A stretch of DNA of 37,339 nucleotides, from IMG/VR virus record IMGVR_UViG_2585427777_000002, positions 1 through 37,339 of that record; one strand, written 5' to 3'. Both the position numbers and the translations under genes were made by a program. Numbering within the stretch: the stretch's first letter is position 1; the number at the start of each line of letters is the position of its first letter. The notes beneath the pieces were generated by a model, which was not told the origin of the DNA, ran no database searches, and saw only the letters and a list, made by a program, of their open reading frames with translations. Below, piece by piece: positions 13,301-28,930 of this stretch. The DNA comes from a virus. Taxonomy: Duplodnaviria > Heunggongvirae > Uroviricota > Caudoviricetes.

Positions 13301-13365
13301 GGAATGGCGAAACCAGCAGAAATAAATCCGTTATTGTTTGATTCAGATACAGGATAGAACGGCAT
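10345..13365 (-). CDS. large internal virion/ejection protein (T7 gp15/gp16-like by synteny)
   Basis: 1006 aa; last of four consecutive genes following tail tubular protein B, the position of the T7 internal core proteins. Confidence 0.65.
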   Translation of the reverse strand: MPFYPVSESNNNGFISAGFAIPEPDEQSFDVHPPEGKNPEPRPKEPSLLAAAIRQNNILAGFFRPARQFEPVEGYNPYADKNELHGYEYWGAKFADSRSPEETAWIKQQIDDENEDRRLLSDAGVVGTLASIAAGMDPVTVASMFIPGAQGGALARIGSQIAIGAAGTALSEVVLNNQQITRSWGESAAHVAAGAMMSGVFASAGVALSPSVRAAATREVADALDNMSITSATDRAAASLSDGGSVGAMKIDTATLDDLTPVSGGWVGKAAWKAGSYLTPLTRLMESPSKTVRKTTLELAENNFTLKGNERGIETPVAVETRTRGWQREEAAVVVGNKQAYAKYKADGGDMSFDSFRQQVGNAMRSGDVHANPVVQETAQAMRTVLNRVKVEMQKLGLLPPDEELKALGQASYFPRIYKVGKIISERDKFRRILVDWWSRGNKTLDPEDAEIAADIVINKITGAKVPQDFVSVFSVKAAGSTKERTLNVPDSLIRDYLESDVNYVLQRHIREAAAEIELTRTFGKRTMTERLQLIEDEYDSLLREVPEKIKAKYDESVANLKARYESNGEVVPQGKLDSLMRKYEKELRKEQSRLSKSRANDLRDITALRDRLVGTYGMPDDPSSFFVRAGAFLRDVNFTTKLGGMTVSAIPDLARGVMVNGFRNTMKGYASQISQSPAFKASKEEMLKMGIGLEAVLHSRSRAIGDLVDSSSRTTAVEAGMERITDAFGKLTLMDRFNDINKSMNGMLTSDGILSGAFSARRMAKLGINDNMAARIRSEFEKHGEVIDGWHIGNFDKWDDQYVAGVFQSAVLKDVNNTIITPGIGDTPLWASTPMGRTIFQFKSFTTASYNRALLGGLQEGTAQFYYGTAFQIALGSLVYALKEASKGKNVDWSPEKLVLEGIDRSGILGPLMEYNNMAEKATGGAVGLGALFGTGTQSRYASRGFVGSLFGPSFGLADSIIDVTAGVLNGDAGDRIVHNVRTLIPGNNLFWIAPLINQVDPVMR

Positions 13366-16073: not shown

Positions 16074-16648
16074 CAGTAACCTCCTATTTTGAATCGGGAG
16101 TCAGAATTCATAAAACCTGAGTTAGATAACATTGGCGTCCCACCACTAGATGTACTTCCTTTAGAGAACGGACTCCACGTCCCACCAAACATCTGGTACG
16201 CACCGTATGCCTTCAGAGGCGCAGTGAGCAATGTTGTTGCTGCTCCCACATTCCCCTGTTTACGGGCTGAACTGGCTTCTGCTTTATAGTTGGCAGCCTG
16301 AACCTGATAACCGTAAGCCTCGCGTTGCGCGTTATTCACCGTCGTCAGCGAATCAAGAGCGCCAAACTGGGCAGTGTCGCCAAATATATCCAGCGCGTTA
16401 CCGGTAGATAAATCGGCGCCGGTCGCCCCCATTGTCGCCGCCTGTGTACCAAGCCGCTGTCGGGTCTCTCTGCGCCGTTGCTCAGCTTCAGCGTTACCTC
16501 TGTTTATTGCATCATTTGCCTGAGCTGTGGCTATATCTGCGTTCGCTTCTGCAACCTTCGAGGCATACTTTCCCTGTTGGTACTGGGTGTATGCCTGAAT
16601 GCCACTCATGGCGAGCATTGCGCCACCAGCAATAACCGGATCGCACAT
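16073..16648 (-). CDS. internal virion protein B (T7 gp14-like)
   Basis: 191 aa; N-terminus MCDPVIAGGAMLAMSGIQAYTQ resembles the Cys-containing N-terminus of T7 gp14; synteny. Confidence 0.6.
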   Translation of the reverse strand: MCDPVIAGGAMLAMSGIQAYTQYQQGKYASKVAEANADIATAQANDAINRGNAEAEQRRRETRQRLGTQAATMGATGADLSTGNALDIFGDTAQFGALDSLTTVNNAQREAYGYQVQAANYKAEASSARKQGNVGAATTLLTAPLKAYGAYQMFGGTWSPFSKGSTSSGGTPMLSNSGFMNSDSRFKIGGY

Positions 16649-17112
16649 TATTTTCTCTCCATGTGAAATCTGTGGAAATTAAGACCAAGAGCACCATAAG
16701 GCGCGGCTTCTTCAAGCCTGAATCCAAGCCAGTGCAGCCATGCTTTGGCAACATGGTTTCGCTCATCGACGTAGTTTTCCAGGCGCGGATAAACTGCCAG
16801 CATCTGCTGCAATACAGGGCGGCAGTGGCGAAGAAATGTCTTCTGATATTTTTCAATACGGCTGGTTCCTACCAGCCAGGGCGTACCATTGCCACCGATC
16901 ATTGACGCCGGAGATACGCCAAACATGGTTACCAGTTCTCCGTTCGCAAATCCTGACCAGGCCATAGTCGCAGTGCGAAGACCAACACGCAGCGCATCTT
17001 CGGTAGTCATCAGCGATACCGCATACAGTTCGTCAATATCAGCCTGACGAACATCCGGCAAAATCATCTGAAGATGCTCTTCGGTAGCGGGAACAATTCG
17101 AACATCGATCAT
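16648..17112 (-). CDS. hypothetical virion protein (T7 gp13 position)
   Basis: 154 aa between the gp12-like and gp14-like genes; assigned by synteny only. Confidence 0.45.
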   Translation of the reverse strand: MIDVRIVPATEEHLQMILPDVRQADIDELYAVSLMTTEDALRVGLRTATMAWSGFANGELVTMFGVSPASMIGGNGTPWLVGTSRIEKYQKTFLRHCRPVLQQMLAVYPRLENYVDERNHVAKAWLHWLGFRLEEAAPYGALGLNFHRFHMERK

Positions 17113-19583
17113 CAGAATCCCCCAACAGTAAGGCGAGGAATAACGGCAAGAACAGACAGCGGCAACGGATCAAGCTGACGGATTTTTACACGTCCGTTTT
17201 TGCCCCAGTTACTGTCCAGTTTCACTTCTACTTTTCCGGTAGCATCATCAACAGGATCATCGTAGAACTCGAATTCACGCTGTGGATATTCGTACCATTT
17301 ACCGCCGGGCGTAGTCGCCCAGATGCCGCGACTGGCATTCACAACCAGAGTAACGGAGGGGATCACCTGTTTTTTGTCCAGCAGCGTTTCCTGTCCGTTA
17401 ATGTTGATATCCAGTGTTTCGAATTCAGCAGTTATTGGCAGGCCGATGTGCACTACAGCCCCCGGAGATTCCAGCGTGACGGCACCTCCGGAAACCACTT
17501 TCTGTGGTTCCACGTTCGCATCAGAGAGAATGTTTACGGTCTGGCCTTCAAGATGAGACAGGCCTCCAAATGTCCGGCGCGCCATCTGCCAGTTCGTGGT
17601 GGCCACATTCCTGAGGGATGGCGGGACGTTCCTGTTAGCACGAACCACTACAGCGGTATTGCTGGTTACAGAAATAATGTCGCAACGTAATTCTTTTGAC
17701 ACCTCATCGCCAGTATCAGGATCAGTTCCGGTATAAGGGAACTGTAGTTGCGCGCCGACATCACTACTGGTGAAGTACGCACCACCAGAAACACTGATTG
17801 TATATTCCGCGCGGTAATCCCATTCGCCAGAACCACCAGTGATGGTCATCGTTCTGTCAGACGTATTTCTTCCATCATAGCTAAGGCCAGAATCAACAAA
17901 GAAAGCATCTTCATCGCTGGTAAATAAACGGCTGGACAGTCTCTCGATGTATCTCACTGTTTGCCCGTTAACGGTCCTGTTAACGGCGAAATACACCGCA
18001 TCTTCATTGCCTTCGCTGATACTGCATGTGCTTTCATATTTTCCGGTACTGGATTGTGGTGCCCATGCAAAAACCTGCTGATCACGCAAATAGGTCATCA
18101 CCAGTAATTTACCGTCATCACGAATGCAGAAGGCGCTGGAGTAAGGGACAATAGAGAAGCACCAGTCAACAATGCTGTGCTTCTGAAAAAGATGATTGGC
18201 AAGGATGGTCAGGTCGTTCCCCTGATAGCCGTCAACATCGAATGAGTAGGCCAGATCACGGACAACACTGCCTTTCTCCTGGACGAACAGAGCAATATTC
18301 GCCACGGCAATTGGTGGGACATTGCTCGAGCCATTTGATCCCTGAGAGCTGAATGCAAATGATGATGGGGTTAACACTTTGTTCTGGTCGCCGGTGATGA
18401 CGTACTCACCTCCGGAAGTCAGTGCCACCAGCGAACCGACATCAATCAGGTGGCGGATCTCATTAACCTGACGCCCGGCATAGGTGTAGATAATTCTGTC
18501 GTCATCCTGCGTAGGATTGCTTTTGCCAAAATCCTTATAATCCCCGGTACGGCTGGCCCAGATAGTCTGAGGGAACGCAGTCGATGCGGCGAAGTAAAGA
18601 CGTTGTTGATAATAAACAACAGTGCCAGGATAACCATTAACACTGTTCCAGGCATATTTAGCCCATTTATAGCTGGCATTATCCTCGCCAACGACCTGCG
18701 AAGGGATATAGGAAATCACCTCAGCAGTTGCAGTAGTGCCATTTGCAGCAGTGATACGGGCAATGCCAAAACCACTGTGCAGATACTCCCACTCAATGCC
18801 AGTATCATCATCACCGGATCCGCCCCAGCCATCCCATGATGTGCCTTCTGTATGCGAAGGGCGCAAAGTACCTGTTTTGCCTGCTGTAACGGCGCGATAG
18901 TAGTTACTGTCTGCACGGCGAATATCGCCAACCGACGTACTCTTACTGGTTTCCCATACCGGCACAGAATCCACTGCAGGCTGTTCCAGATAGAACAATT
19001 TGCCTACCTGCTCCGCGCCAAAAATAGAGGCGCTTGCCGTTAACGTAATTGTCCCGGTGCTGGCGCTGGCATAAACCGTCACTGACTCGTCAATATTGAT
19101 ATCTTCAAATGGCCCGTTCTTCGTTACCACATCAACCAGTTGCCAGTTGTCATGAGCATATCTGCGCAACTCTTTCGGCGGGTATGCCGGGTGAACCAGC
19201 GTAAGCACGTCGGCGCTTTGCGTGAATTTAATTCGGAACAGATCGGCTTCAGTATATGGCGTGGCAATTTCATAAATAACATTGCTGCTGTTCAGCACCA
19301 ACGCACCATCTTTGATAACGCGCATGTACTGGTGTCCGAACTCCAGAGCATAGGTCTGAACCGTCGAGAACTGGAACGGGATCAGGCGGCATTTCCGATT
19401 TGGGTATTTGGCGGCACCGACAAAACGCGTACCAGGTCGATTCTCAACGCCGCCATACTGCCGCACGATAAAGTTATCGCACTTGCGCAATGCCACCTGG
19501 TACTTCGCCATGTCAATACGCCCGTACAACGACGGTCCAATCTCACCACCGGCAAAGCTGGGCTGGATCCAACTGATAGCCAT
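17112..19583 (-). CDS. tail tubular protein B (T7 gp12-like)
   Basis: 823 aa; N-terminus MAISWIQPSFAGGEIGPSLYGRID resembles T7 gp12; follows the gp11-like gene. Confidence 0.8.
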   Translation of the reverse strand: MAISWIQPSFAGGEIGPSLYGRIDMAKYQVALRKCDNFIVRQYGGVENRPGTRFVGAAKYPNRKCRLIPFQFSTVQTYALEFGHQYMRVIKDGALVLNSSNVIYEIATPYTEADLFRIKFTQSADVLTLVHPAYPPKELRRYAHDNWQLVDVVTKNGPFEDINIDESVTVYASASTGTITLTASASIFGAEQVGKLFYLEQPAVDSVPVWETSKSTSVGDIRRADSNYYRAVTAGKTGTLRPSHTEGTSWDGWGGSGDDDTGIEWEYLHSGFGIARITAANGTTATAEVISYIPSQVVGEDNASYKWAKYAWNSVNGYPGTVVYYQQRLYFAASTAFPQTIWASRTGDYKDFGKSNPTQDDDRIIYTYAGRQVNEIRHLIDVGSLVALTSGGEYVITGDQNKVLTPSSFAFSSQGSNGSSNVPPIAVANIALFVQEKGSVVRDLAYSFDVDGYQGNDLTILANHLFQKHSIVDWCFSIVPYSSAFCIRDDGKLLVMTYLRDQQVFAWAPQSSTGKYESTCSISEGNEDAVYFAVNRTVNGQTVRYIERLSSRLFTSDEDAFFVDSGLSYDGRNTSDRTMTITGGSGEWDYRAEYTISVSGGAYFTSSDVGAQLQFPYTGTDPDTGDEVSKELRCDIISVTSNTAVVVRANRNVPPSLRNVATTNWQMARRTFGGLSHLEGQTVNILSDANVEPQKVVSGGAVTLESPGAVVHIGLPITAEFETLDININGQETLLDKKQVIPSVTLVVNASRGIWATTPGGKWYEYPQREFEFYDDPVDDATGKVEVKLDSNWGKNGRVKIRQLDPLPLSVLAVIPRLTVGGF

Positions 19584-20188
19584 CAGGACAACCTCGCAAT
19601 GGTAAACTCATCAACCGGTGGCTGTGGTTCCTGTGATTCATTCTGGCTATGCGAGCCAGCACTAAGAATCACGCGATTGTACATATTGAGGGCAAACGTA
19701 CCGAGGTCTGCATTCCCAGTCAGCGCCATGTTAATAGCTGCCGCAAGACGCCAGGCCAACGCCTCCATAAAAATGGCATCAAACATGTTCACATCTGTAA
19801 CGCGAGAGACATACTTGAGCCATGCCTGAGGCTGGTCTGTGTAGATCAACTTTCCTGTTCCGTTGGTGTCTGCACCAACTTCGTACTGAACGCGCATTGC
19901 TGCTGTTGGATTGCGTACACCAGGAAGCATAATTTCAGTAATGCGCAGACAATCTGACGGGTACTGGTACGCATATTCCCAGTCAGGCGGTGGATTGCTC
20001 GTATCTGCAAGCGCCACGCGTTTGGTAGCAAAGTTCCAGTCAAAATCAGAAAGCACAGCATCACGGCAGGCCTCAAAGTGCAGCGAACATTCCCCCGCTT
20101 CCTTGCTGGCTTCCGTCAGGCTGTTAATGCTGCGGCTGTTGCCAATATTGGACAGCGCACGATTGCAGATCTCTACTACAGAGGCCAT
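19583..20188 (-). CDS. tail tubular protein A (T7 gp11-like)
   Basis: 201 aa; N-terminal ICNRALSNIGNSRSINSL resembles T7 gp11; AGGAG RBS. Confidence 0.75.
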   Translation of the reverse strand: MASVVEICNRALSNIGNSRSINSLTEASKEAGECSLHFEACRDAVLSDFDWNFATKRVALADTSNPPPDWEYAYQYPSDCLRITEIMLPGVRNPTAAMRVQYEVGADTNGTGKLIYTDQPQAWLKYVSRVTDVNMFDAIFMEALAWRLAAAINMALTGNADLGTFALNMYNRVILSAGSHSQNESQEPQPPVDEFTIARLS

Positions 20189-20204
20189 AAGTTTCTATAC
20201 TCCT

Positions 20205-20226
20205 GCAATAAAGGGGCCGAAGCCCC
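20205..20226 (-). terminator. intra-operon hairpin/partial terminator between head and tail gene blocks
   Basis: Stem GGGGC/GCCCC with short loop, followed on the minus strand by TTTATT. Confidence 0.45.
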
Positions 20227-20244
20227 TTGTCTGATTCGCGAGGC

Positions 20245-20580
20245 TTACACGCCCAGTTCTTTACGCTTATCTGCGATCTTCTCGCGTAGCGTTTCGGCTT
20301 TGGCGTTATGGTGTGGCTTCTCGTTAAAGAGCAATTCGTACTCTTCACGGAGCTTATCCAGTTCACCATCATCTGACACATCGTTGATGATTTTGGTGCT
20401 GGTTGCTGCCATTGACACCTTTCCTGCAACTTTTGCTTTTGCCTGTCTGGCTGCATCGTTAACAGGTTCCAGTGCGCTACCAGGCTCACCTTCGTATTCG
20501 ATTTCTGCCCCCTCCGGCCACAGAGTGTTATGGATATGAGAGAGGCGCAGAACGCGGTATCTTGGTTTCTCACCTGACAT
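20245..20580 (-). CDS. hypothetical head-module protein
   Basis: ORF 20245..20589; ATG at 20578..20580 has a strong AAGGTGA RBS. Confidence 0.5.
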   Translation of the reverse strand: MSGEKPRYRVLRLSHIHNTLWPEGAEIEYEGEPGSALEPVNDAARQAKAKVAGKVSMAATSTKIINDVSDDGELDKLREEYELLFNEKPHHNAKAETLREKIADKRKELGV

Positions 20581-20590
20581 CGATATCACC

Positions 20591-21028
20591 TTAACCAGTT
20601 ACTTTTGAGCGGATCGGATACGGCGTATTGGCATCAACATCAAGACTGATACCAGCAGTGAATTCGCCAGCCGTTAGTGGGCCAGTTGCGACGGAGTAGT
20701 TAACACGCAGATATCGCTGAACACCGGCAGGCACCTTTGCAGAAACAACTCGTTTACCTGCTGTCAGGGCGGTCTTTGCCAGTGCGCCACTATCATAAAT
20801 AGTGGTCCATGAGCTGTTATTCTCACTCGTCTGCAACTGGATGTTTACAGTTGCATCACCGCTTGCTGCGGCGGCTGCGTTAACCAGCACCCAAAACTCA
20901 AGCGGGTAACCCACGCCGATATCGCGATGGTTTCCATCAATTGGACCGAGATCGATTACGTCAGTAGAAGCCGCGGTATCAGTTACCGCCTGTGCTTCGG
21001 AGAACATCAACAGTTTGTCGGTGATCAT
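20591..21028 (-). CDS. hypothetical structural protein (possible capsid decoration or minor capsid protein)
   Basis: 145 aa directly after the major capsid gene; GGAG RBS; no motif recognised. Confidence 0.5.
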   Translation of the reverse strand: MITDKLLMFSEAQAVTDTAASTDVIDLGPIDGNHRDIGVGYPLEFWVLVNAAAAASGDATVNIQLQTSENNSSWTTIYDSGALAKTALTAGKRVVSAKVPAGVQRYLRVNYSVATGPLTAGEFTAGISLDVDANTPYPIRSKVTG

Positions 21029-21079
21029 CTTCTTTCTCCATTAGTGGGTCTGTTACGACCCACAGGTTAATAACAGGCG

Positions 21080-22066
21080 TTACACCACGCGGGCTTCTGT
21101 TTCCAGAAGCGCATCAGTTTCACGGATTGGTACACCACGGAATGAAGTCCACCACTCGCCTTCTGTCTCTTTTACGCTGATCGCCAGAGATGTTTTCTCC
21201 AGAGATTGCAGATCAAGAGCCTGACCTACAGTGCGGTTCATGTAGAACACTGGGCGCCCCATGCCACGGTTTGGAATGCGATGCAGTGCTTTAACCATCA
21301 ACTTCGCAATATTTGCGGCAGAGGAAGGTTCTGAAAGATTGCTGACATCGATGTTTGCAATGCGAACAACATAACGCCAGTCACGCAGAGCAAGTCCGTT
21401 GTCCCATTTGTAATGGGTGCGGTAGCCTTCGTACTTGCCGCCATTAGCATCTTCCAGTGTCACCTGGCCTTTATCTTCCATCTGAATGCCAGCCTTCTGC
21501 CCTTTCGGGAAGATGCCATGCACGGTGTTTTCGCCCCACACCACTAACCAGATTGAGGTGTTATCTGTACCCGTGCCACCAGCATCAATGATGTTCTGAG
21601 CATTACCTGCAGACAGGCTGGAATAGCGGGAGGACAGTCCCATAAACTGCTGAGGGTTAACGCTGGAATCACCATAAAACAACGTCTGCGCCATCTGCTG
21701 ATTCATCGCTTCAATAAATGCGCGGTCTTCAGACAGGCGGAATTCGGCGGTATTGCCGTTCAGATCAGCCAGTGACTTATCGACTTCAGCATAGGTTTCC
21801 AGCATGCCCACGGAATCGGTTACCTGCACTGTGGTTGATTTGCTTGGCTGTACGCCATAGTTCAGCAAACGCCAGGTAGCTGAAGGTAAACCAGAACGAA
21901 TGGTGGTTTTGTGTCCGGTAGGAAGGTTCCCTTCGACAAAAGGCATATCCTGAAGGATCGGGTTAGTTTGACCGAGAAGCTCGATAATCTTATCGACTTT
22001 CCCATCTGGATCGACGCGCTTACCCCAGTCAGCCAGCGTTAGCGCAGTTAAGCCTTTAACAGCCAT
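21080..22066 (-). CDS. major capsid protein
   Basis: About 328 aa following the scaffold gene; GAGAGG RBS fits the ATG at 22064..22066 better than the first ATG. Confidence 0.8.
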   Translation of the reverse strand: MAVKGLTALTLADWGKRVDPDGKVDKIIELLGQTNPILQDMPFVEGNLPTGHKTTIRSGLPSATWRLLNYGVQPSKSTTVQVTDSVGMLETYAEVDKSLADLNGNTAEFRLSEDRAFIEAMNQQMAQTLFYGDSSVNPQQFMGLSSRYSSLSAGNAQNIIDAGGTGTDNTSIWLVVWGENTVHGIFPKGQKAGIQMEDKGQVTLEDANGGKYEGYRTHYKWDNGLALRDWRYVVRIANIDVSNLSEPSSAANIAKLMVKALHRIPNRGMGRPVFYMNRTVGQALDLQSLEKTSLAISVKETEGEWWTSFRGVPIRETDALLETEARVV

Positions 22067-22080
22067 TGTCATTTCCTCTC

Positions 22081-22782
22081 TTATTTGCCATAGAGCACTT
22101 CGGCCGCACTACGCTGGCCTTCATTACCACCGGTGACCATGCCATCTTCAGACATCGCCTTTCCGATTTTCACGAACGTTTTGACCAGATCAGGGTGATT
22201 ACCCAGCCCGGTGGTGTTCAGATATTCTTTGAGTTCAGGTGTCCCGAACTGGTCAAGCGCACGCTGTGCGGCGCTAAGGTTAGAAATCAACTTGTCGCCA
22301 CCGATTTCTTTGTCAGCTTTTACATCCGCAGCCCACTGCTCGGTTGTTTTCTGCCAGGCTTCTGCCTGGCGCTGCTGAACACCTGCCAGAATCTTCGGAT
22401 AAGCATCAACCAGCTTTTGCGCTTGCTCGTTGGTCAGGTTAAGTTCTCGCGCCACTGGCTCGAATTCCTTCAACGCTTCTGTATCCAGCTCTACGCCTTC
22501 GGCAGCATGAAATTCGTACTTCTCCGGCGCACCCTCTGGTTTATCGCCGTCCTTTTTTTCACCCTGCTTATCGTTTTCAGATTTTTTTTCATCATCAGGT
22601 TTATCGACATCAACAACAGGTTGTGGCTTATCACCTTCCTGTTGTGATGGATCACCAACTGGAGCAGGGTTATCACCTGCAGGCGCTGACGGTTCTGACG
22701 CAGCCGGAGCTGCTCCACCATCGACTTGTTGCTCATTGCAAAGACGGCGATACAGCAAACGCTCAAATAAATTCATGATCAC
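22081..22782 (-). CDS. scaffolding protein
   Basis: 233 aa, highly acidic and Lys/Glu/Asp/Pro-rich, between portal and capsid genes as in T7 gp9. Confidence 0.7.
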   Translation of the reverse strand: MIMNLFERLLYRRLCNEQQVDGGAAPAASEPSAPAGDNPAPVGDPSQQEGDKPQPVVDVDKPDDEKKSENDKQGEKKDGDKPEGAPEKYEFHAAEGVELDTEALKEFEPVARELNLTNEQAQKLVDAYPKILAGVQQRQAEAWQKTTEQWAADVKADKEIGGDKLISNLSAAQRALDQFGTPELKEYLNTTGLGNHPDLVKTFVKIGKAMSEDGMVTGGNEGQRSAAEVLYGK

Positions 22783-23075
22783 TCCTGTTCACTGGCCTCT
22801 TTGGCCATCTTCAAATACTGTTCAGGGCAATGCGCCATAACGCGCTGAAACAGTTCCAGCGCCAGATTGCGTTGCCCCTCATTAAATGCCATTGCCATAG
22901 CGTCCATCGGTGAGATAGCGGAAAACACACGGCCTTTCTCCAGCACCGACCAGACAACGCGACGCCCCTGTTCACTGCTCATGACAAAGCGAATGTCATC
23001 AATTTCACGCTGCGCCATGTCACGTTGCTTACGGGCGTTTTCTTCTTTCAGTTGATCGTCTTCGTAATCTGTCAT
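22779..23075 (-). CDS. hypothetical small acidic protein
   Basis: 98 aa ORF translationally coupled between portal and scaffold. Confidence 0.5.
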   Translation of the reverse strand: MTDYEDDQLKEENARKQRDMAQREIDDIRFVMSSEQGRRVVWSVLEKGRVFSAISPMDAMAMAFNEGQRNLALELFQRVMAHCPEQYLKMAKEASEQE

Positions 23076-24751
23076 TGTGATTGCCCACCCTGACCACTAA
23101 CTGCATTCGCCATAGCTGACAACACACTCGGATCCGAAGTTTTAGCTTCGCTTAGCGTCTTGGCCCCCTGTGCCGCCGCCATCCCCATCGCCATCATTTG
23201 TTGCTGCTGTTGTTGCTGTGCCCGTTGCTGGCGAGCCTGCTCAACCTGTTCCTGCGGAACAATGACGGTTGGAGACACTCCGGACATATCAGCGAATGCA
23301 TCGATCGCCTGATCAACGTTGAGTTTGTCGAGAGCTTCTGGTTTCGCTTGCGCAAGTTGACCAATGAAGTTGACCGTAGACGCCAGACTGGACAGGCCGA
23401 TAGACTTCTGCGCCTGAGCCATGACGGAAATGTATTCGACCTTCAGGGGCATACCTTCCATCGCGTCAGGCGGTGGCGGCAGCATGTTTTTACGCACCAT
23501 CATCGAGAAAGCGCGGTCAATGAGAGGATTAAGACATTCGTCGTTCAGACGCTCCAGAACCGGCCCCAACATCAGAAGTTTTTCTTCTTTCATTTCGATC
23601 ACTGCTTCAACAGGCATCGAGCGGGTATTGATGTTCTGCAACATCATGAACAGATCGACAAAGTAGGCGCTGTTAATGATTTGACGAGTGTCCTGAATGT
23701 CTGCCACCAAATCTGCTGTACTGGGGTTAACCAGATAAGCAGGCCTGAAACCATCCTGACCAGTAATCTGATCGATATACGTGATGTCGCCAGGAAGAAG
23801 GGAGGCACGCTGATTCTTGAGGGAAGTCGGAGCAACCATCGGCGGATTGGTGGCTTTATCAATCAACTGCGACTTGCGCTTCTGGAGAAGCTGCAATGCC
23901 TTAACAGGTCCAAGCGCCAGCATACCCGGGCATGATGATCCATAAACATCTTCGCCGTTAACTTCCCAGCGCGGAGCCATAATTGGAAACTGATCGAATC
24001 CGGACTCACGCAACAACTTGTCGTTATCGCCACCAACCTCGTAATAAACCGATTTGAATGGCTTGTTCTTGCTATCCAGCTTCGATGTATCGCGGTCAAT
24101 GTTCGGGTAAACCGAATGCATCACTTCAATCCACTTCTCGTAGGTGCCGCTTTCCCACATGCTTTTTACGGATTCGCTGACGTTATTTAGCCCGAACTCC
24201 TGAACAAGCTGACGAACAGTCATAGAGAACTTGCGAAAACAGGTGTCAACACTGCCACGAGGTGAGTTAGCCAGGTAGTAACTGCCTATCGGGAATGGCA
24301 TTGTGCGAATGATGTCCTCGTCATCCTCCAGCACTGCCATTGCACCAGTGCTGTATGTGCCGAGGCTTCCGTATAACTGCGGCAGAGACTGATAGAGATT
24401 CGACTTATTGAACATATCGTTCATGCGGTTCTGCACCGCCTAAAGCCACAACTTAACAGGGCCATAATCCATCATTTCAGGATCTGGCGTAGCCAGGCGA
24501 AACCACGGACGCGCGGGGCTTGTGATGCCTGACATCATGCCGCTGGCGAGAGTGCGCGCCGCCATAGTCCCGGTCGAATCAATAATACGTGTATTGCGTC
24601 GATCGTTACGGTTGACCTCAGAAGTCAGAAAGCGGGAACCACGCGGGTTGATGTAATCACTCAACTCGCGCCAGTGCGGCTCGAACGATTGACGCTCGCT
24701 TTCAAGTTGTGCGAACTGTTTGTTCAATCGCTCTTTAGTTGTTTCCGCCAT
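23072..24751 (-). CDS. portal protein (T7 gp8-like), reading frame interrupted by an in-frame TAG at 24440..24442
   Basis: ORFs 24440..24751 and 23072..24436 are in the same frame with a single TAG between them; the N-terminal piece carries ARTLASGMMSGITSPARPWFRL resembling the T7 gp8 N-terminal region; Q-rich C-terminus; GGAG RBS before ATG 24751. Confidence 0.75.
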
Positions 24752-24765
24752 TTCAATGACTCCGG

Positions 24766-24972
24766 TTACTGACCAAGCAGCGTTTTACCGCTGGTATTAG
24801 CGGTTGATGTGTCGCCCCGAGAACCGGTAAGCAGCGTAGAACTACGACCAGCAGCAGCGCGACGGCGACGTGTTTCTTCGTCGCGGGCATCAACAACGGC
24901 GGCATCCTGCTCCTGTGGTGCTGCCTGAACTTCTGGTGTTGCAGGCACTGATGGTGAGCTACCCATGCACAT
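24766..24972 (-). CDS. hypothetical small protein
   Basis: 68 aa ORF with GGAG RBS 8 nt upstream. Confidence 0.4.
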   Translation of the reverse strand: MCMGSSPSVPATPEVQAAPQEQDAAVVDARDEETRRRRAAAGRSSTLLTGSRGDTSTANTSGKTLLGQ

Positions 24973-25061
24973 ATCAATGACTCCGTACGCAATTAAATTA
25001 TTACCAATTTAACCACATATGATTTATTTATCGTAGACAGTTGACATTTAACGCGCGAATT

Positions 25062-25078
25062 ATTACCTTTAAGGTAAC
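25062..25078. promoter_or_regulatory. operator-like palindrome ATTACCTTTAAGGTAAC with upstream TTGACA
   Basis: Perfect TTACC-N5-GGTAA; TTGACA at 25041..25046; divergent region between gene 24972 and the tRNA. Confidence 0.6.
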
Positions 25079-25399
25079 TAAAGAGTTCATTCCGGTTACT
25101 AACCTGACTGGCTTGTCGTTAAATTGAACAGGTGGAGTGAGCTTTTATTTTGAGCAGTACGGCGTATGGCACATGCGACGATAGCGGTCTGGATACGTTT
25201 AAGGGGCACCCTCCCTTGCTCGGGCAAACGAACCAGGTAGCCGGAATGTGCAAGTCGAGCGGTTTTATTCCGCGCACGGGGATTCACCATCCCGGCGATT
25301 CGGTGTGACGCCTCGGAAGAGACGAGGGTACAACGATGAGAGCATTTATGGAGCTGCGACAAAGTGTGGCGCATTAACAGGCTAAGTGCTCTCAGCGTT

Positions 25400-25476
25400 G
25401 TGGCATTAGCTCAGCTGGACAGAGCAACCGCCTTCTAAGCGGTTGGTCGCAGGTTCGAATCCTGCATGCCACGCCA
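25400..25476 (+). tRNA. tRNA-Arg (anticodon UCU), phage-encoded
   Basis: 77 nt folded by eye: 7-bp acceptor stem GTGGCAT/ATGCCAC, D-arm GCTC/GAGC, anticodon stem ACCGC/GCGGT with loop CTTCTAA, T-arm GCAGG-TTCGAAT-CCTGC, discriminator G and CCA end. Confidence 0.9.
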
Positions 25477-25519
25477 GAATCACGCCCAAGGACCGTGATG
25501 CCAGAAGTTCCAGGTGCTT

Positions 25520-25561
25520 GGCGGTGATAGTTTCCCTTGAAGGACTATCACCGCCCTTTTT
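25520..25561 (+). terminator. rho-independent terminator downstream of the tRNA
   Basis: 12-bp stem GGCGGTGATAGT/ACTATCACCGCC followed by CTTTTT. Confidence 0.65.
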
Positions 25562-25639
25562 ACAGCAGGACGCCATTGCGATGACTTCATGCTGTAAACC
25601 AGTACAGCCACGGAAGGCATAACTCATTGCTTCCAGTTC

Positions 25640-25663
25640 GCCCGGTTCGCCGGGCATTTTTTT
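25640..25663 (+). terminator. hairpin plus T-run immediately upstream of gene 25675 (terminator or attenuator)
   Basis: GCCCGG-ttcg-CCGGGC followed by TTTTTTT, then the RBS AAGGTGA. Confidence 0.5.
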
Positions 25664-25674
25664 AAGGTGAGATC

Positions 25675-26094
25675 ATGAAGACAATTGATATGTTGGCTAA
25701 GTATCTAAATGAATGGCCATTAAAATATTCTCGTATCGTTCAGGCTGAAGACTGCATTTTTTATGGCGTTCTTGCTGGTAATGAAATGCATTACGAAGTA
25801 ATTCAGAGTGAGGGACTGGCTGGGTTAACTCTTAGCGAAGACCATGGTACTAGCGTTACGTTCCATGACTGGATAACAGCACAACGTTCTGAAATGGAAA
25901 AAGGCGATGTTTTTGATATTTCTCGCGCTGTTTACGCTAAAGCAAAAAGTGATAATGATTACATGAGCGAACACTTATACAACATGAAGTTGCAATGCCT
26001 GCATGCGGCGCTTATTCAGAATGGGCACTTCGATAAAACAAGTGCCATCAATATTGCGGAAGCCATCAACGCTGGATTTAATGCCATTAAGTAA
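25675..26094 (+). CDS. hypothetical protein (cargo gene between terminase and portal)
   Basis: 139 aa with AAGGTGA RBS; opposite strand to the structural operon; flanked by terminators; no family recognised. Confidence 0.6.
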   Translation: MKTIDMLAKYLNEWPLKYSRIVQAEDCIFYGVLAGNEMHYEVIQSEGLAGLTLSEDHGTSVTFHDWITAQRSEMEKGDVFDISRAVYAKAKSDNDYMSEHLYNMKLQCLHAALIQNGHFDKTSAINIAEAINAGFNAIK

Positions 26095-26098
26095 CACC

Positions 26099-26110
26099 GT
26101 GACATGTCAC
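26099..26110. repeat. 12-bp perfect palindrome GTGACATGTCAC
   Basis: Second copy of the palindrome at 8204..8215. Confidence 0.5.
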
Positions 26111-26114
26111 AAAC

Positions 26115-26141
26115 AGCCAGCCGATGAGCTGGCTTTGTTTT
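26115..26141 (+). terminator. rho-independent terminator of gene 25675..26094
   Basis: Stem AGCCAGC/GCTGGCT followed by TTGTTTT. Confidence 0.6.
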
Positions 26142-26184
26142 ATCCTCATCAGAGGATATCAACGACATTATCCCCACCAGCGGA

Positions 26185-27660
26185 TTAAGCATATGGATCG
26201 TAATCTGTGATGGCCTTGCCTTGCTGGTTCTGCTGCCCGGGAATTCGCAGACGCTTTGACACAGGGAAAGCAAACGTCAGCAGTAGCGCATCGCCTTTAC
26301 CAGGAGAACGCCCAAGCCGCTCCTTGATATCTTCCTTCGGTTCGATAACGATTTTACCGTCCACTCGAACTTTATACTCTGCCGCCGACAGGTCGTCCGC
26401 TGTTTCCTGGTCATCCAGCATCCCGCCCAGCCTCAGCCATGTCTTGCATGAGTTGAACATCTCCCCACGCTTGTTGAGCATCTGCGGGTCAGTAGACGCG
26501 CCACCGAACGGAACAAGTTGCCATGTGCGCCCCCAACCATCACCGATTGACTTCAGACCGGTACCGTAACCGAAGTCGATGAACACCGCGTCAGCCTGAT
26601 ACTGGTCTTCAAAGTCAGCGATACGCTTCGCCATAATCAGATCGTCGGTGGTCTTGTTACCAGTCCATAGCACCTTACTGTGCAGCCCCTGCCGCAGGTA
26701 TATCACAGCGTCATCAACGCCGGAGTATGCCGGGTCAACGCCGATTATCACCGGAGCATGTGCCACCTGCGCAGCGGTTACCACCCGTTTCATTGCCTCG
26801 TCAGTAAGACCGGTAGGGATAAACTGCAATTCAGATGCATCAGGGAATATGCCGCGCACACGGATTTTAACGAAGTCGCTGTCTTCCCCGTAGTCATCAA
26901 CCCATTTCTGCAACTGCTGTTTGTTAGTGCCTTCCACCGTCCGGCTGTCAATCTGCACAGTTTTCCAGCGGTGTTTATATTTGCGGAAACATTCGCGGAA
27001 ACGCCCGGTATTACGCGTCGGGTTTCCGAACGCCACCCAGATAATCTCAGTGTCTTCGTCCGTTAGCGCACCCTCGGCAACTTCCCACACCAGATCCGCA
27101 ATGTTCGACGCTTCATCGAATACCACGATGATGCGTTTGCGCTCGTTGTGTAGTCCGGCAAATGCCTCAGTGTTGTGCTCAGACCAGGGGATTGCGTCAG
27201 CTCGCCAACGCTTGTCGTGCCCAGGGTCATTGCTGTACATCGCGGTAGCGGTACAGGTAAACCAGTCTTTCGTGATAGCAAGGTTCGACCACTTGATAAT
27301 TTCCGGCCAGGTCTTCGTTCGTAGCTGGTTGTCGGTGTTGGCGGTCACCACGACCTTACAATCCTCGCAAGTGGACATGCCCCAGTTGATCAACATTGAG
27401 ATGAATGCTGATTTACCAATACCGTGACCCGAAGCACGTGCCAGCATAAGCGGCTGATAGCGCGTCTCTGGATTCTGCAGGTGATCACGTATCTCTCGGA
27501 ACGCATCAGCCTGCCACTGACGTGGGCCGGTAGCATGTGCCAGTTCAGTCCCCTCTTCCCCCCACGGGAACGCATAGAGGGCATAGCCAAGCGGATCGTG
27601 AGTGAACCCTGCAATATCCTCGATTAACTGCTCTTCAGGAGATAACGCTGTATCTGTCAC
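26185..27660 (-). CDS. terminase large subunit
   Basis: 491 aa; ATPase-like N-terminal half and nuclease-like C-terminal half; translationally coupled to the small subunit gene. Confidence 0.85.
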   Translation of the reverse strand: MTDTALSPEEQLIEDIAGFTHDPLGYALYAFPWGEEGTELAHATGPRQWQADAFREIRDHLQNPETRYQPLMLARASGHGIGKSAFISMLINWGMSTCEDCKVVVTANTDNQLRTKTWPEIIKWSNLAITKDWFTCTATAMYSNDPGHDKRWRADAIPWSEHNTEAFAGLHNERKRIIVVFDEASNIADLVWEVAEGALTDEDTEIIWVAFGNPTRNTGRFRECFRKYKHRWKTVQIDSRTVEGTNKQQLQKWVDDYGEDSDFVKIRVRGIFPDASELQFIPTGLTDEAMKRVVTAAQVAHAPVIIGVDPAYSGVDDAVIYLRQGLHSKVLWTGNKTTDDLIMAKRIADFEDQYQADAVFIDFGYGTGLKSIGDGWGRTWQLVPFGGASTDPQMLNKRGEMFNSCKTWLRLGGMLDDQETADDLSAAEYKVRVDGKIVIEPKEDIKERLGRSPGKGDALLLTFAFPVSKRLRIPGQQNQQGKAITDYDPYA

Positions 27661-28256
27661 TGATTACCATCCTGACGTTCTTTGAGTCGCTTCCTGGCTG
27701 CTGCTATGCGATCAGCAATTGTCACATTCACATTAACATCCAGGCGTTCTTTGAATGCGTTGACGTCGACGTGCTTACCAATCAGTTCGAGGTTCTTCAC
27801 CTTGTCAGGCCATTTAATTTTTTTGAGGATTGTCTCTATCGAATCCTCGTTCATGTTCATGATGGTCGATGACAGATCAAAGCCGCTAAGCGTAGTGCGC
27901 CAGATTTTCGGCCACTCGCGGATTGGCTTAAGGCTCCCATCGTCGTTGAGGATGTCGATCACGTCCATCTGGTCGATCTCCACCAGGCGCATGAGAACGT
28001 AATCAGCACTGACGCGCATTCGTTTGTTGCGCTCCTCCATCAACTCGGCAATCCGTTTCTGAATGCGTTCATCGCGCATCATGACACTGGCTTTAACTGC
28101 CGCTGTATTTGGGGAGAATCCTGCGTTAATCGCAGCCTGAGTCTGATTTTCAGGCGTTTTGATGTATGACTGGCAATAAGCCTCCTGCATTGCTGTTAGT
28201 GGCTTAAATTGCGTTGATTTGCGTTTATAGGTTTTAGGTTCAGCAGGCATCATAAC
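27657..28256 (-). CDS. terminase small subunit
   Basis: ORF 27657..28331; start taken at MMPAEPKTY because upstream codons lie in the operator/direct-repeat region; motif QEAYCQSYIKTPENQTQAAINAGFSPNTAAVKASVMMR typical of Terminase_2-type small subunits. Confidence 0.75.
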   Translation of the reverse strand, partial: VMMPAEPKTYKRKSTQFKPLTAMQEAYCQSYIKTPENQTQAAINAGFSPNTAAVKASVMMRDERIQKRIAELMEERNKRMRVSADYVLMRLVEIDQMDVIDILNDDGSLKPIREWPKIWRTTLSGFDLSSTIMNMNEDSIETILKKIKWPDKVKNLELIGKHVDVNAFKERLDVNVNVTIADRIAAARKRLKERQDGNQ

Positions 28257-28269
28257 CACCGTGGTAATA

Positions 28270-28286
28270 GTTACCGTTGTGGTAAT
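28270..28286. promoter_or_regulatory. operator-like palindrome GTTACCGTTGTGGTAAT at the start of the packaging/structural operon
   Basis: Perfect TTACC-N5-GGTAA inside the direct repeat GTGGTAATAGT-N8-GTGGTAATAGT, just downstream of a minus-strand terminator. Confidence 0.55.
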
Positions 28287-28290
28287 AGTA

Positions 28291-28322
28291 CCATGCAAAA
28301 TAAAGCCGCCATAGTTGGCGGC
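28291..28322 (-). terminator. rho-independent terminator separating early genes from the terminase operon
   Basis: Stem GCCGCC/GGCGGC followed on the minus strand by TTTATTTTG, directly after the stop of gene 28328..28930. Confidence 0.6.
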
Positions 28323-28327
28323 AGTAT

Positions 28328-28930
28328 TCAAAGTCCATCAAATTCATCGTAAAAACTCTCGTCAAGATACCCTTCCCATTTACCGCGAATGAAAATTACA
28401 TCCTCGCCGCAAGGGTGCTGACTGTCGATAACTATATCCCTCCTGGCGCAACCATACTTATGCATGAGAAATTTAACCTCTTTCGGAAAATTTGCTGAGT
28501 TATCTCTCATATCTTCAAGGTCGTAGCGTATTTTTGGCATAACACCTTCGTAATATTCACGCTGTTCGTTGAGTTTTGATTTTGTCTCTTCAAGCTCAGC
28601 AACCAGTTTTCGAAGCCCTTCAATCTCACCATTGCGAGCAATGAGGTCGCGGCACATGCTTTCGTTCTCATCCAGCAGTGCCAGCACGGTAGCTGGACTG
28701 GCTGCGGCGATGAATTCAGCATTGGCCTGCTGTTCCATTTGGAAATCGTCATCGAAACCGCTTTCAGGATGTGCTCCTTCAATTCTGCAAATGGGAAGAT
28801 ATCCAACAACTTCACGATGAATTAACGCATCATCACAATCAAATCGGCTCTCTCCATATTCGAGCGACCATACACCACACGTTGCTTTTTCTGCCTTAGC
28901 ACGCAGTGCCTGATAATCAATCTTGCTCAC
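28328..28930 (-). CDS. hypothetical early protein (possibly Ead/Ea22-like)
   Basis: 200 aa; N-terminus MSKIDYQALRAKAEKATCGVW recalled as similar to Ead/Ea22-like prophage proteins; translationally coupled. Confidence 0.55.
   Translation of the reverse strand: MSKIDYQALRAKAEKATCGVWSLEYGESRFDCDDALIHREVVGYLPICRIEGAHPESGFDDDFQMEQQANAEFIAAASPATVLALLDENESMCRDLIARNGEIEGLRKLVAELEETKSKLNEQREYYEGVMPKIRYDLEDMRDNSANFPKEVKFLMHKYGCARRDIVIDSQHPCGEDVIFIRGKWEGYLDESFYDEFDGL

What the first reader, a model, noticed from the sequence alone, without database searches (positions are those of the whole stretch)
24437..24442. In-frame TAG interrupts the portal gene
The 103-codon ORF 24440..24751 and the 454-codon ORF 23072..24436 are in the same frame, separated by one TAG (24440..24442) and two sense codons. 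The upstream piece carries a T7 gp8-like N-terminal motif, so both belong to one portal gene of about 558 codons. Possible explanations are a nonsense mutation in a defective prophage, dependence on an amber-suppressing host, a sequencing error, or a small upstream protein with the portal restarting at ATG 24422..24424. The phage tRNA reads AGA, not UAG, so it is not the suppressor.
Basis: seen in the sequence. Interest (0 to 1): 0.6.

Follow-up and report, generated by a model that had tools for sequence, protein, structure and literature searches.

The report
Likely false stop in prophage portal
The stop codon that splits the portal gene of this E. coli prophage is really in the deposited sequence, but it is most likely a known kind of Illumina base-calling error that recurs at this exact spot in unrelated draft genomes, not a biological feature.

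Summary
The window is a whole draft contig (JOST01000059.1, E. coli 5-366-08_S4_C1) carrying a phiV10/epsilon15-like (Uetakevirus) prophage. The portal gene (24751..23072, minus strand, 559 codons) has TAG at codon 104 (24442..24440). Relatives have GAG or GAA there.

The stop is probably not biological:
- The same G>T change recurs on at least 8 different portal alleles from unrelated strains.
- It usually comes with a second change 7 nt away (T>G), and once with a third (G>A).
- Each changed base copies the preceding base, just downstream of two GGC motifs and at a small hairpin. This is the published signature of Illumina sequence-specific dephasing error.
- Two carriers are documented HiSeq 2000 + MaSuRCA drafts from one centre.
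- None of 517 complete E. coli genomes with this portal, and none of 120 IMG/VR contigs examined, has it.
- Two contigs break exactly at this base.
- A near-identical prophage (3 differences in 16.5 kb) has an intact portal.

My estimate is about 0.8 artefact, 0.1 real private nonsense mutation, and 0.05 real mutational hotspot. Amber suppression or a split or restarted portal are unsupported. Interest is low.

The parts
23072..24751 (-). Portal (head-to-tail connector) gene of a phiV10/epsilon15-like prophage. It is 559 codons plus stop, interrupted at codon 104 in this assembly.
   Evidence: The length and position equal phiV10p07 and its homologues. Pfam PF12236 scores 623 bits for the repaired protein. 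The PDB portal 8ck0_A matches at E=1.5e-178.
24440..24442 (-). TAG at portal codon 104 (portal nt 310-312). Only nt 310 (window 24442) differs from relatives: G>T on the coding strand, C>A on the plus strand.
24443..24751 (-). The N-terminal 103-codon piece, annotated in GenBank as KEO35284.1.
   Evidence: It matches Pfam PF12236 profile positions 2-98.
23072..24436 (-). The C-terminal piece. The mechanical ORF runs from GTG 24436. Gene callers used ATG 24424 to give a 450-aa product, KEO35283.1.
   Evidence: It matches Pfam PF12236 profile positions 102-488.
24445..24447 (-). First GGC motif (portal nt 305-307). It ends 2 nt upstream of the altered base, in the coding direction.
   Evidence: Read directly from the sequence. 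GGC within 10 nt upstream is the main trigger of Illumina sequence-specific errors (PMC3141275).
24438..24440 (-). Second GGC motif (portal nt 312-314). It ends 2 nt upstream of nt 317 (window 24435), the site of the linked T>G change in the other affected assemblies.
24425..24439 (-). A small hairpin, GCGGT-GCAGA-ACCGC (portal nt 313-327), starting right after the TAG.
   Evidence: It appears in the minimum-free-energy fold of both strands (61-nt z-scores -2.2 and -2.5). The stem is only 5 bp, shorter than the inverted repeats of more than 8 bp counted by Nakamura et al.
25400..25476 (+). tRNA-Arg (anticodon TCT), the only tRNA in the window. It is not an amber suppressor.
   Evidence: The homologous tRNA is annotated in CUVET20-1667.

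Best explanation
The TAG is most likely a consensus error in a short-read draft assembly, caused by Illumina sequence-specific (lagging-strand dephasing) miscalls. The true sequence is most likely GAG (Glu104) in an ordinary intact portal gene.

Proposed mechanism (inferred, not shown). Reads made in the portal-sense direction pass TGGCTT and then GAGGCGG, which sit at a small hairpin. Part of each cluster falls one cycle behind, so the base call is contaminated by the preceding base. This matters most where the two bases are G and T, which share optical crosstalk. That predicts:
- CTT[G] read as CTT[T] at nt 310;
- GG[T] read as GG[G] at nt 317;
- occasionally GA[G] read as GA[A] at nt 312.

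The wrong k-mers are frequent enough to survive error correction and now and then win the bubble. Some assemblies therefore fix the error, and others simply break at this base.

Shown: recurrence on independent backgrounds, the preceding-base rule, the motif context, the batch effect, absence from finished genomes, and contig breaks at the site.

Inferred: that reads of this particular isolate carry the error in a strand-specific way.
For: 1. Recurrence on unrelated backgrounds. The exact 103-aa truncated product is indexed in 57 blocks of the collection and seen on 35 contigs. Eight full-length portal alleles with a stop at codon 104 differ from each other at 8-29 of 1680 nt. They are no closer to each other than to intact alleles.

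2. Same micro-lesion each time. Six alleles have 310 G>T plus 317 T>G, one has those two plus 312 G>A (TAA), and the window has 310 G>T alone. L009 differs from intact L098 at 6 of 8734 aligned bases. Sites 310 and 317 are the only differences in a stretch of about 7.6 kb. L012's portal equals intact L103's except at the same two sites. A recombined patch or shared ancestry is therefore excluded.

3. Error signature.
- All three substitution types copy the immediately preceding base in the coding direction.
- Two of the three are G<->T.
- GGC motifs end 2 nt upstream of both 310 and 317.
- Both sites fall in the 33 of about 1670 portal positions (2%) where a lag-1 G/T confusion with a GGC within 10 nt upstream is possible.
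- Nakamura et al. 2011 (PMC3141275) report GGC within 10 nt upstream of error start sites, 49-61% of miscalls equal to the preceding base, T-G conversions favoured, false SNPs, and branching or gaps in assemblies.

4. Batch effect. Two carriers (LGMU = ETEC 602687, Bangladesh; LGMM = ETEC 300659, Mozambique) are documented HiSeq 2000 + MaSuRCA drafts from the Institute for Genome Sciences (PMC5216030). That is at least 2 of 35 genomes in that batch against 0 of 517 complete E. coli genomes carrying this portal. My arithmetic gives a worst-case p of about 0.004.

5. No such allele elsewhere. All 120 IMG/VR matches examined are GAG..GGT, and direct scans for the variant alleles found none.

6. 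Assembly breaks. Contigs L015 and L016 end at portal nt 310 and 309 respectively.

7. This prophage is otherwise intact.
- L139 (GCA_031880735.1) differs from the window at 3 of 16,472 aligned bases, one of them 24442, and has GAG.
- The repaired 559-aa protein occurs exactly on 49 other contigs.
- The other structural-module ORFs keep about the lengths of their phiV10 counterparts. I saw no second lesion.
Against: - No reads were available, so strand bias and base quality at 24442 were not examined.
- The window carries 310 G>T alone, without the linked 317 T>G seen in the other seven alleles. It is the least typical example.
- I could not document the sequencing platform of this assembly. 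The strain name suggests the same centre, but that is from memory only.
- The hairpin stem is 5 bp, below the more-than-8-bp inverted repeats counted in the SSE paper.
- The motif test was designed after seeing the sites.
- A complete genome (ETEC4075) has a real-looking 1452-bp deletion whose left end lies exactly at this base.
- A 1-nt deletion 4 nt away (inferred loss of C314) is on 227 contigs.

The last two hint that the spot could also be biologically fragile. A single-base deletion is not a typical dephasing product.
Confidence: 0.8

Rival explanations
1. This is a real, recent, private nonsense mutation (Glu104 to amber) in the prophage of this isolate. The portal is truncated after 103 residues, no heads can be packaged, and the prophage is defective although otherwise intact.
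For: - The TAG is in the deposited consensus.
- The window lacks the linked 317 T>G that marks the other affected assemblies.
- Prophages do accumulate inactivating mutations. One relative, ETEC4075, is clearly degraded.
Against: - It would have to hit by chance the very nucleotide that is altered the same way on seven other unrelated alleles.
- There are no other lesions, and only 3 differences in 16.5 kb from an intact twin.
- None of 517 complete genomes has it.
Confidence: 0.1
2. This is a real site-specific mutational hotspot. The GGC-rich hairpin at portal nt 305-327 is a fragile site that repeatedly generates substitutions, a 1-nt deletion and deletion end-points in vivo. It would then knock out the portal of this prophage family again and again.
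For: - The same 8-nt stretch carries 310 G>T, 312 G>A and 317 T>G.
- A 1-nt deletion, inferred as loss of C314, is on 227 contigs.
- It is also the left end of a 1452-bp deletion with GCTT microhomology in a complete genome.
Against: - No known mutational process gives an identical G>T plus T>G pair 7 nt apart.
- Quasi-palindrome templating predicts G310>C and G312>T, not what is seen. The changes weaken the hairpin rather than perfecting it (and direct reading).
- No donor sequence exists in the window.
- CRISPR escape (GAG PAM 310-312 plus seed) is unsupported. Only 2 of the 520 matching records gave a partial match to this region, and the one I could inspect is a deletion, not a spacer.
- The point changes are absent from all 517 complete genomes and concentrated in one sequencing batch.
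Confidence: 0.05
3. The amber codon is functional. It would be read through by a host amber suppressor or by programmed readthrough, or the portal would be made as two polypeptides or restarted at GTG 24436 or ATG 24424.
For: - The residue aligned to position 104 is not conserved (Glu here, Tyr in the solved homologue 8ck0), so an inserted Gln or Tyr would probably be tolerated.
- Only 12 portal copies are needed per virion (general knowledge).
Against: - The stop is not conserved in any relative.
- There is no suppressor tRNA in the window.
- I see no obvious Shine-Dalgarno sequence before the ATG (direct reading).
- A restart product would lack profile positions 2-98 of the portal family.
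- The near-identical twin prophage has GAG.
Confidence: 0.02

Closest known systems
Illumina sequence-specific error (SSE) from lagging-strand dephasing at GGC motifs and inverted repeats (Nakamura et al. 2011, NAR 39:e90, PMC3141275)
   Same: - A GGC motif lies within 10 nt upstream of each altered base.
- A hairpin is adjacent.
- Every altered base equals the preceding base.
- G<->T changes dominate.
- Several linked miscalls sit within a few nt.
- The result is a false SNP in the consensus and contig breaks at the site.
- It recurs in independent samples.
   Different: - Here the error reached the assembled consensus of deposited genomes rather than only the read pile-up.
- The inverted repeat is 5 bp, not more than 8 bp.
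- Strand specificity and base quality could not be examined.
- The neighbouring 1-nt deletion variant is not a typical SSE product.
Portal (head-to-tail connector) of Uetakevirus phages phiV10 (PhiV10p07, YP_512261.1) and epsilon15 (gp4, NP_848212.1); Pfam PF12236, the T7 gp8 type
   Same: - The DNA is 98.5% identical to phiV10 over the 1801-nt query.
- The gene is the same 1680-nt length.
- It has the same neighbours: terminase, tRNA-Arg, a small gp3-like ORF, portal, Bbp19-like, protease, capsid.
- It matches the Pfam profile over its full length.
   Different: A single base at codon 104 gives TAG instead of GAG or GAA.
Amber (sus/am) mutants of phage morphogenesis genes grown on supE or supF hosts
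   Same: An in-frame UAG lies in an essential head gene, at a position whose residue is not conserved.
   Different: - This is a wild isolate's prophage, not a selected laboratory mutant.
- There is no suppressor tRNA in the window.
- The same 'mutation' appears on unrelated alleles together with neighbouring miscall-like changes.

Membership tests
PF12236 Head-tail_con (T7 gp8-type portal) | The protein matches the Pfam profile above the gathering score over nearly the full profile. | tested here: met
   The N piece scores 119 bits (profile 2-98) and the C piece 482 bits (profile 102-488). The repaired protein scores 623 bits (profile 2-488 of 489) against a cut-off of 27.
PF12236 Head-tail_con (T7 gp8-type portal) | Relatives carry a single uninterrupted gene between the terminase and the protease/capsid genes. 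| tested here: met
   One CDS of 1680 nt (1671 nt in epsilon15) is annotated in phiV10, ZX5, epsilon15 and CUVET20-1667. The gene product is 559 aa in L138-L140.
Uetakevirus (phiV10/epsilon15-like) temperate podovirus prophage | Nucleotide similarity and gene order match the type phages across the structural module. | tested here: met
   Window 16167-28348 aligns to phiV10 at 97-98.5% identity and is collinear. The lysis and early regions are 88-97% identical. The tail-spike and internal-protein regions are mosaic.
Illumina sequence-specific error (SSE) | A GGC motif lies within about 10 nt upstream of the miscalled base in the read direction. | tested here: met
   GGC at portal nt 305-307 precedes nt 310 and 312. 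GGC at 312-314 precedes nt 317.
Illumina sequence-specific error (SSE) | The miscalled base equals the immediately preceding reference base, with T-G conversions favoured. | tested here: met
   310 G>T follows T, 312 G>A follows A, and 317 T>G follows G. That is 3 of 3, and two are G/T (criterion).
Illumina sequence-specific error (SSE) | An inverted repeat lies next to the error start site. | tested here: inconclusive
   A 5-bp stem with a 5-nt loop at nt 313-327 appears in the minimum-free-energy folds. The paper counted repeats longer than 8 bp.
Illumina sequence-specific error (SSE) | The error is reproducible at the same site in independent samples whatever the genetic background. | tested here: met
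   Eight different portal alleles carry it. Two of them equal an intact allele except at sites 310 and 317.
Illumina sequence-specific error (SSE) | The error is tied to platform or batch and is absent from finished genomes. | tested here: met
   LGMU and LGMM are HiSeq 2000 + MaSuRCA drafts from one centre. None of 517 complete genomes and none of 120 IMG/VR contigs has it. The platform of the window's own assembly is not documented here.
Illumina sequence-specific error (SSE) | The error causes branching or gaps in assemblies at the site. | tested here: met
   Contigs L015 and L016 end at portal nt 310 and 309 (criterion).
Illumina sequence-specific error (SSE) | Mismatches are confined to reads of one direction and have low base quality. 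| not testable with these tools
Suppressor-dependent or programmed-readthrough gene | The in-frame stop is conserved among relatives. | tested here: not met
   Relatives have GAG or GAA in phiV10, ZX5, CUVET20, epsilon15, 120 IMG/VR contigs and all the complete genomes.
Suppressor-dependent or programmed-readthrough gene | The element or host encodes a cognate suppressor tRNA. | tested here: not met
   Only tRNA-Arg(TCT) is in the window. The host genome was not examined.
Decaying (cryptic) prophage | Several independent inactivating lesions are present. | tested here: not met
   The other structural-module ORFs keep about the lengths of their phiV10 counterparts. The window differs from an intact twin at 3 of 16,472 bases. 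The contig ends inside the integrase gene, so the prophage ends were not assessed.

The most novel reading that the evidence does not exclude
The 8-nt stretch GAGGCGGT at portal nt 310-317 would be a genuine, sequence-directed mutational hotspot or fragile site in Uetakevirus prophages. There, a GGC-rich hairpin would repeatedly produce nonsense, frameshift and deletion alleles in vivo, giving a recurrent built-in route to prophage inactivation.
Probability: 0.05. Interest if true: 0.6.

Novelty: not a real feature. Interest (0 to 1): 0.12.

Why it matters
As biology it matters little. The prophage most likely has a normal portal and may well be inducible.

As data quality it is a useful warning. 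One particular base of a portal gene found in about 10% of complete E. coli genomes is repeatedly miscalled in short-read drafts. The result is false 'split portal' annotations (for example KEO35283/KEO35284), false pseudogenes and false 'defective prophage' calls.

Surveys of prophage decay, stop-codon reassignment or suppressor dependence that rely on draft assemblies would pick this site up again and again. If the small chance of a real hotspot were true, it would be an unusual case of site-directed prophage inactivation.

Tried and rejected
- **Shared ancestry or a recombined patch carrying the TAG.** Rejected. The stop-bearing alleles are not each other's closest relatives, and two of them equal intact alleles except at the two sites.
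- **Quasi-palindrome template switching.** Rejected. Perfecting the hairpin would need G310>C and G312>T. The observed changes do not extend the stem, and 317 T>G breaks it (direct reading).
- **Ectopic donor for gene conversion.** No other copy of the mutated 16-mer exists in the window at up to 3 mismatches.
- **CRISPR self-targeting escape** (GAG PAM at 310-312 with seed at 313-317, or type I-F registers on the other strand). Unsupported. Only 2 of the 520 matching records gave partial matches to this region. The one I could see is a deletion junction, not a spacer.
- **DGR-type mutagenesis.** Considered because the module has BPP-1-like genes. The changes are not adenine-specific, and the prophage's homologues in phiV10 and ZX5 have no annotated reverse transcriptase. 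I did not scan the window's own ORFs for one.
- **General low quality of the contig.** Not supported. The 18 other private SNPs in 12.5 kb are mostly transitions with no GGC/lag pattern.
- **DNA of the 109-aa frameshift variant (P0014).** Could not be retrieved.
- **Sequencing details of the window's own assembly.** Searches for JOST/JONE accessions and strain names found nothing usable. Richter et al. 2018 (PMC6060285) describes a different isolate set, listed under SRR accessions.
- **Denominator for draft assemblies.** The large protein search did not give a usable figure.

Full report
**What is at the coordinates**

Read on the minus strand, the window has ...AAG TTG TGG CTT TAG GCG GTG CAG AAC CGC ATG AAC....
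- A 103-codon ORF (ATG 24751, stop TAG at 24442..24440) is followed in the same frame by one sense codon (GCG, 24439..24437).
- Then comes a 454-codon ORF that starts at GTG 24436 and ends at 23072.
- The two pieces hit consecutive parts of the same Pfam profile, PF12236 Head-tail_con: positions 2-98 and 102-488 of 489.
- Together they span exactly 1680 nt, the length of the single portal CDS in phiV10, vB_EcoP_ZX5 and an E. coli chromosome.
- The closest solved structure by sequence is portal 8ck0_A (E=1.5e-178).

This is one portal gene cut by one stop.

**What the window is**

- The window is the whole contig JOST01000059.1 of assembly GCA_000713855.1, E. coli 5-366-08_S4_C1.
- It is a phiV10/epsilon15-like (Uetakevirus) prophage. 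The segment 16167-28348 is 97-98.5% identical and collinear with phiV10. The lysis and early regions are related, and the tail-spike and internal-protein regions are mosaic.
- The contig starts 127 nt downstream of the Rz gene and ends inside the integrase gene.
- The only tRNA is Arg(TCT) at 25400..25476.

**The stop is one base away from every relative**

phiV10, ZX5 and CUVET20-1667 have GAG and epsilon15 has GAA at codon 104. The change is G>T at portal nt 310, which is window 24442.

Elsewhere the TAG allele is absent:
- No complete E. coli genome in the collection matches the TAG allele over the 81-nt query. The best full-length matches are 80 of 81. 517 of the 5426 genomes carry this stretch.
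- All 120 IMG/VR matches examined are wild type, and scans for the variant alleles found nothing.

**The unexpected result: the same stop recurs in unrelated assemblies**

An exact look-up of the 103-aa product found it in 57 blocks of the public collection, on 35 contigs. These include five NCBI draft genomes, Logan assemblies of three sequencing runs, a JGI metagenome and an ENA metagenome.

- The eight full-length portal alleles with the stop differ from one another at 8-29 of 1680 positions. They are no closer to each other than to intact alleles.
- Six carry 310 G>T plus 317 T>G (TAG and Val106Gly).
- One carries those two plus 312 G>A (TAA).
- The window has 310 G>T alone.
- L009 differs from the intact IMG/VR contig L098 at 6 of 8734 aligned bases. 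Sites 310 and 317 are the only differences in about 7.6 kb. L012's portal equals intact L103's except at the same two sites.

Common descent and recombination of a patch are therefore excluded. The same micro-lesion arose many times.

**Why I read it as a sequencing artefact**

1. *Direction of the changes.* All three substitution types replace a base by the base just before it in the coding direction (T then G>T, A then G>A, G then T>G). Two of the three are G/T exchanges.
2. *Motif context.* The sequence is TGGCTTGAGGCGGTG. GGC motifs end 2 nt upstream of nt 310 and of nt 317. A GCGGT/ACCGC hairpin starts at nt 313.
3. *Match to the published error profile.* Nakamura et al. 2011 (PMC3141275) describe exactly this for Illumina sequence-specific errors:
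   - GGC within 10 nt upstream, and inverted repeats nearby;
   - 49-61% of miscalls equal to the preceding base, attributed to lagging-strand dephasing;
   - T-G conversions favoured by optical crosstalk;
   - false SNPs where most mismatches fall at a few positions;
   - apparent branching and gaps in assemblies.
4. *Rarity of such positions.* Sites 310 and 317 both belong to the 33 of about 1670 portal positions (2%) where a one-cycle lag would confuse G with T and a GGC lies within 10 nt upstream. This test was chosen after seeing the data.
5. *Contig breaks.* Contigs L015 and L016 end at portal nt 310 and 309.
[quoted passage not shown] Even if all 35 carried the prophage, 2 of 35 against 0 of 517 complete genomes gives p of about 0.004 (my arithmetic). 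LRLH is numerically close in accession. The window's strain name suggests the same centre, but I could not document either point.

**This prophage is otherwise healthy**

- L139 (GCA_031880735.1) is the same prophage. It differs at 3 of 16,472 bases, one of them 24442, and has GAG and a 559-aa portal.
- The repaired protein occurs exactly on 49 other contigs.
- The other structural-module ORFs keep about the lengths of their phiV10 counterparts.
- The window's 18 other private SNPs in 12.5 kb are mostly transitions without the GGC/lag pattern, so the contig is not generally poor.

**Alternatives**

- *A real private nonsense mutation* would have to strike by chance the nucleotide that is miscalled elsewhere. 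I give it about 0.1, mainly because the window lacks the linked 317 change and I have no reads.
- *A real mutational hotspot* is hinted at by two side observations:
  - A 109-aa frameshift product (...WLEGCRTA*, which requires loss of C314) is seen on 227 contigs. It too is absent from complete genomes.
  - The complete genome of ETEC4075 has a 1452-bp deletion running from portal nt 310 into the Bbp19-like gene, with GCTT microhomology.

  However, quasi-palindrome templating predicts different changes. There is no donor sequence. A CRISPR-escape reading lacks spacers, since only two of the 520 matching records gave partial matches. No known process makes the same G>T plus T>G pair. I give it about 0.05.
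- *Suppression, readthrough, a split portal or a restart* have nothing in their favour beyond the non-conserved residue at 104, which is Tyr in 8ck0. I give them about 0.02.

**Verdict**

The stop codon is most likely an Illumina sequence-specific error fixed in a draft consensus (confidence about 0.8). It is not a new biological feature. Its value is as a caution about a reproducible false pseudogene in a common E. coli prophage. The decisive test is a strand-resolved read pile-up at 24442, or Sanger sequencing of the strain.

Noticed in passing
portal nt 314 (window 24438); protein P0014: A second truncated portal N-terminus (109 aa, ending ...KLWLEGCRTA*) is seen on 227 contigs from NCBI, Logan and ENA. 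It requires loss of the C in GAGGCGG, 4 nt from the TAG site. No complete E. coli genome has it. Whether it is another artefact or a real clonal frameshift is unknown, because its DNA could not be retrieved.
   Followed up: partly
L137 (NZ_CP122652.1, E. coli ETEC4075) 4036-4040, equivalent to window 24443: A complete genome carries a degraded copy of this prophage. A 1452-bp deletion joins portal nt 309 to the middle of the Bbp19-like gene through a GCTT microhomology, so its left end is exactly at the base studied here. The terminase genes are not annotated in the stretch shown, and the capsid gene is truncated.
   Followed up: partly
window 1 and 37339 (contig ends): The contig begins 127 nt downstream of the Rz/spanin gene and ends inside the integrase gene, at phiV10 coordinate 27641. 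About 0.9 kb, including attP and the 5' part of int, is therefore missing, and no host flank is present. Integration site and prophage ends cannot be judged from this window.
   Followed up: no
window 25400-25476 (+) and ORF 25406..25657 (-): The tRNA-Arg(TCT) gene lies between the terminase and portal genes, where phiV10 and ZX5 annotate a 252-nt 'hypothetical protein' (PhiV10p04, QTH80046.1) and no tRNA. RefSeq annotation of CUVET20-1667 places a tRNA-Arg there instead, overlapping that position on the other strand. The ORF calls may therefore be spurious.
   Followed up: no
window 10345-16073 (-): Two large virion or internal-protein genes (1006 aa and 902 aa, the latter with a weak SLT lytic transglycosylase hit) have no DNA match to phiV10 or ZX5, which carry 837-, 600- and 824-aa genes at that place. 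This looks like a mosaic swap of the ejection/internal-protein module. L139 shares the window's version.
   Followed up: no
proteins P0031 (735 aa, phage vB_EcoP_PAS61) and P0044 (673 aa, E. coli): Two over-long 'portal' proteins appeared among the close relatives. One is 735 aa in a deposited phage genome. The other is 673 aa and carries both the portal (PF12236) and capsid (PF20911) domains. They suggest other assembly or annotation anomalies in this gene neighbourhood.
   Followed up: no
L038, L099, L131 (IMG/VR contigs), portal codon 557: Three otherwise intact portal alleles have a stop at codon 557, three codons before the usual end. This is probably a harmless natural C-terminal variant.
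   Followed up: no
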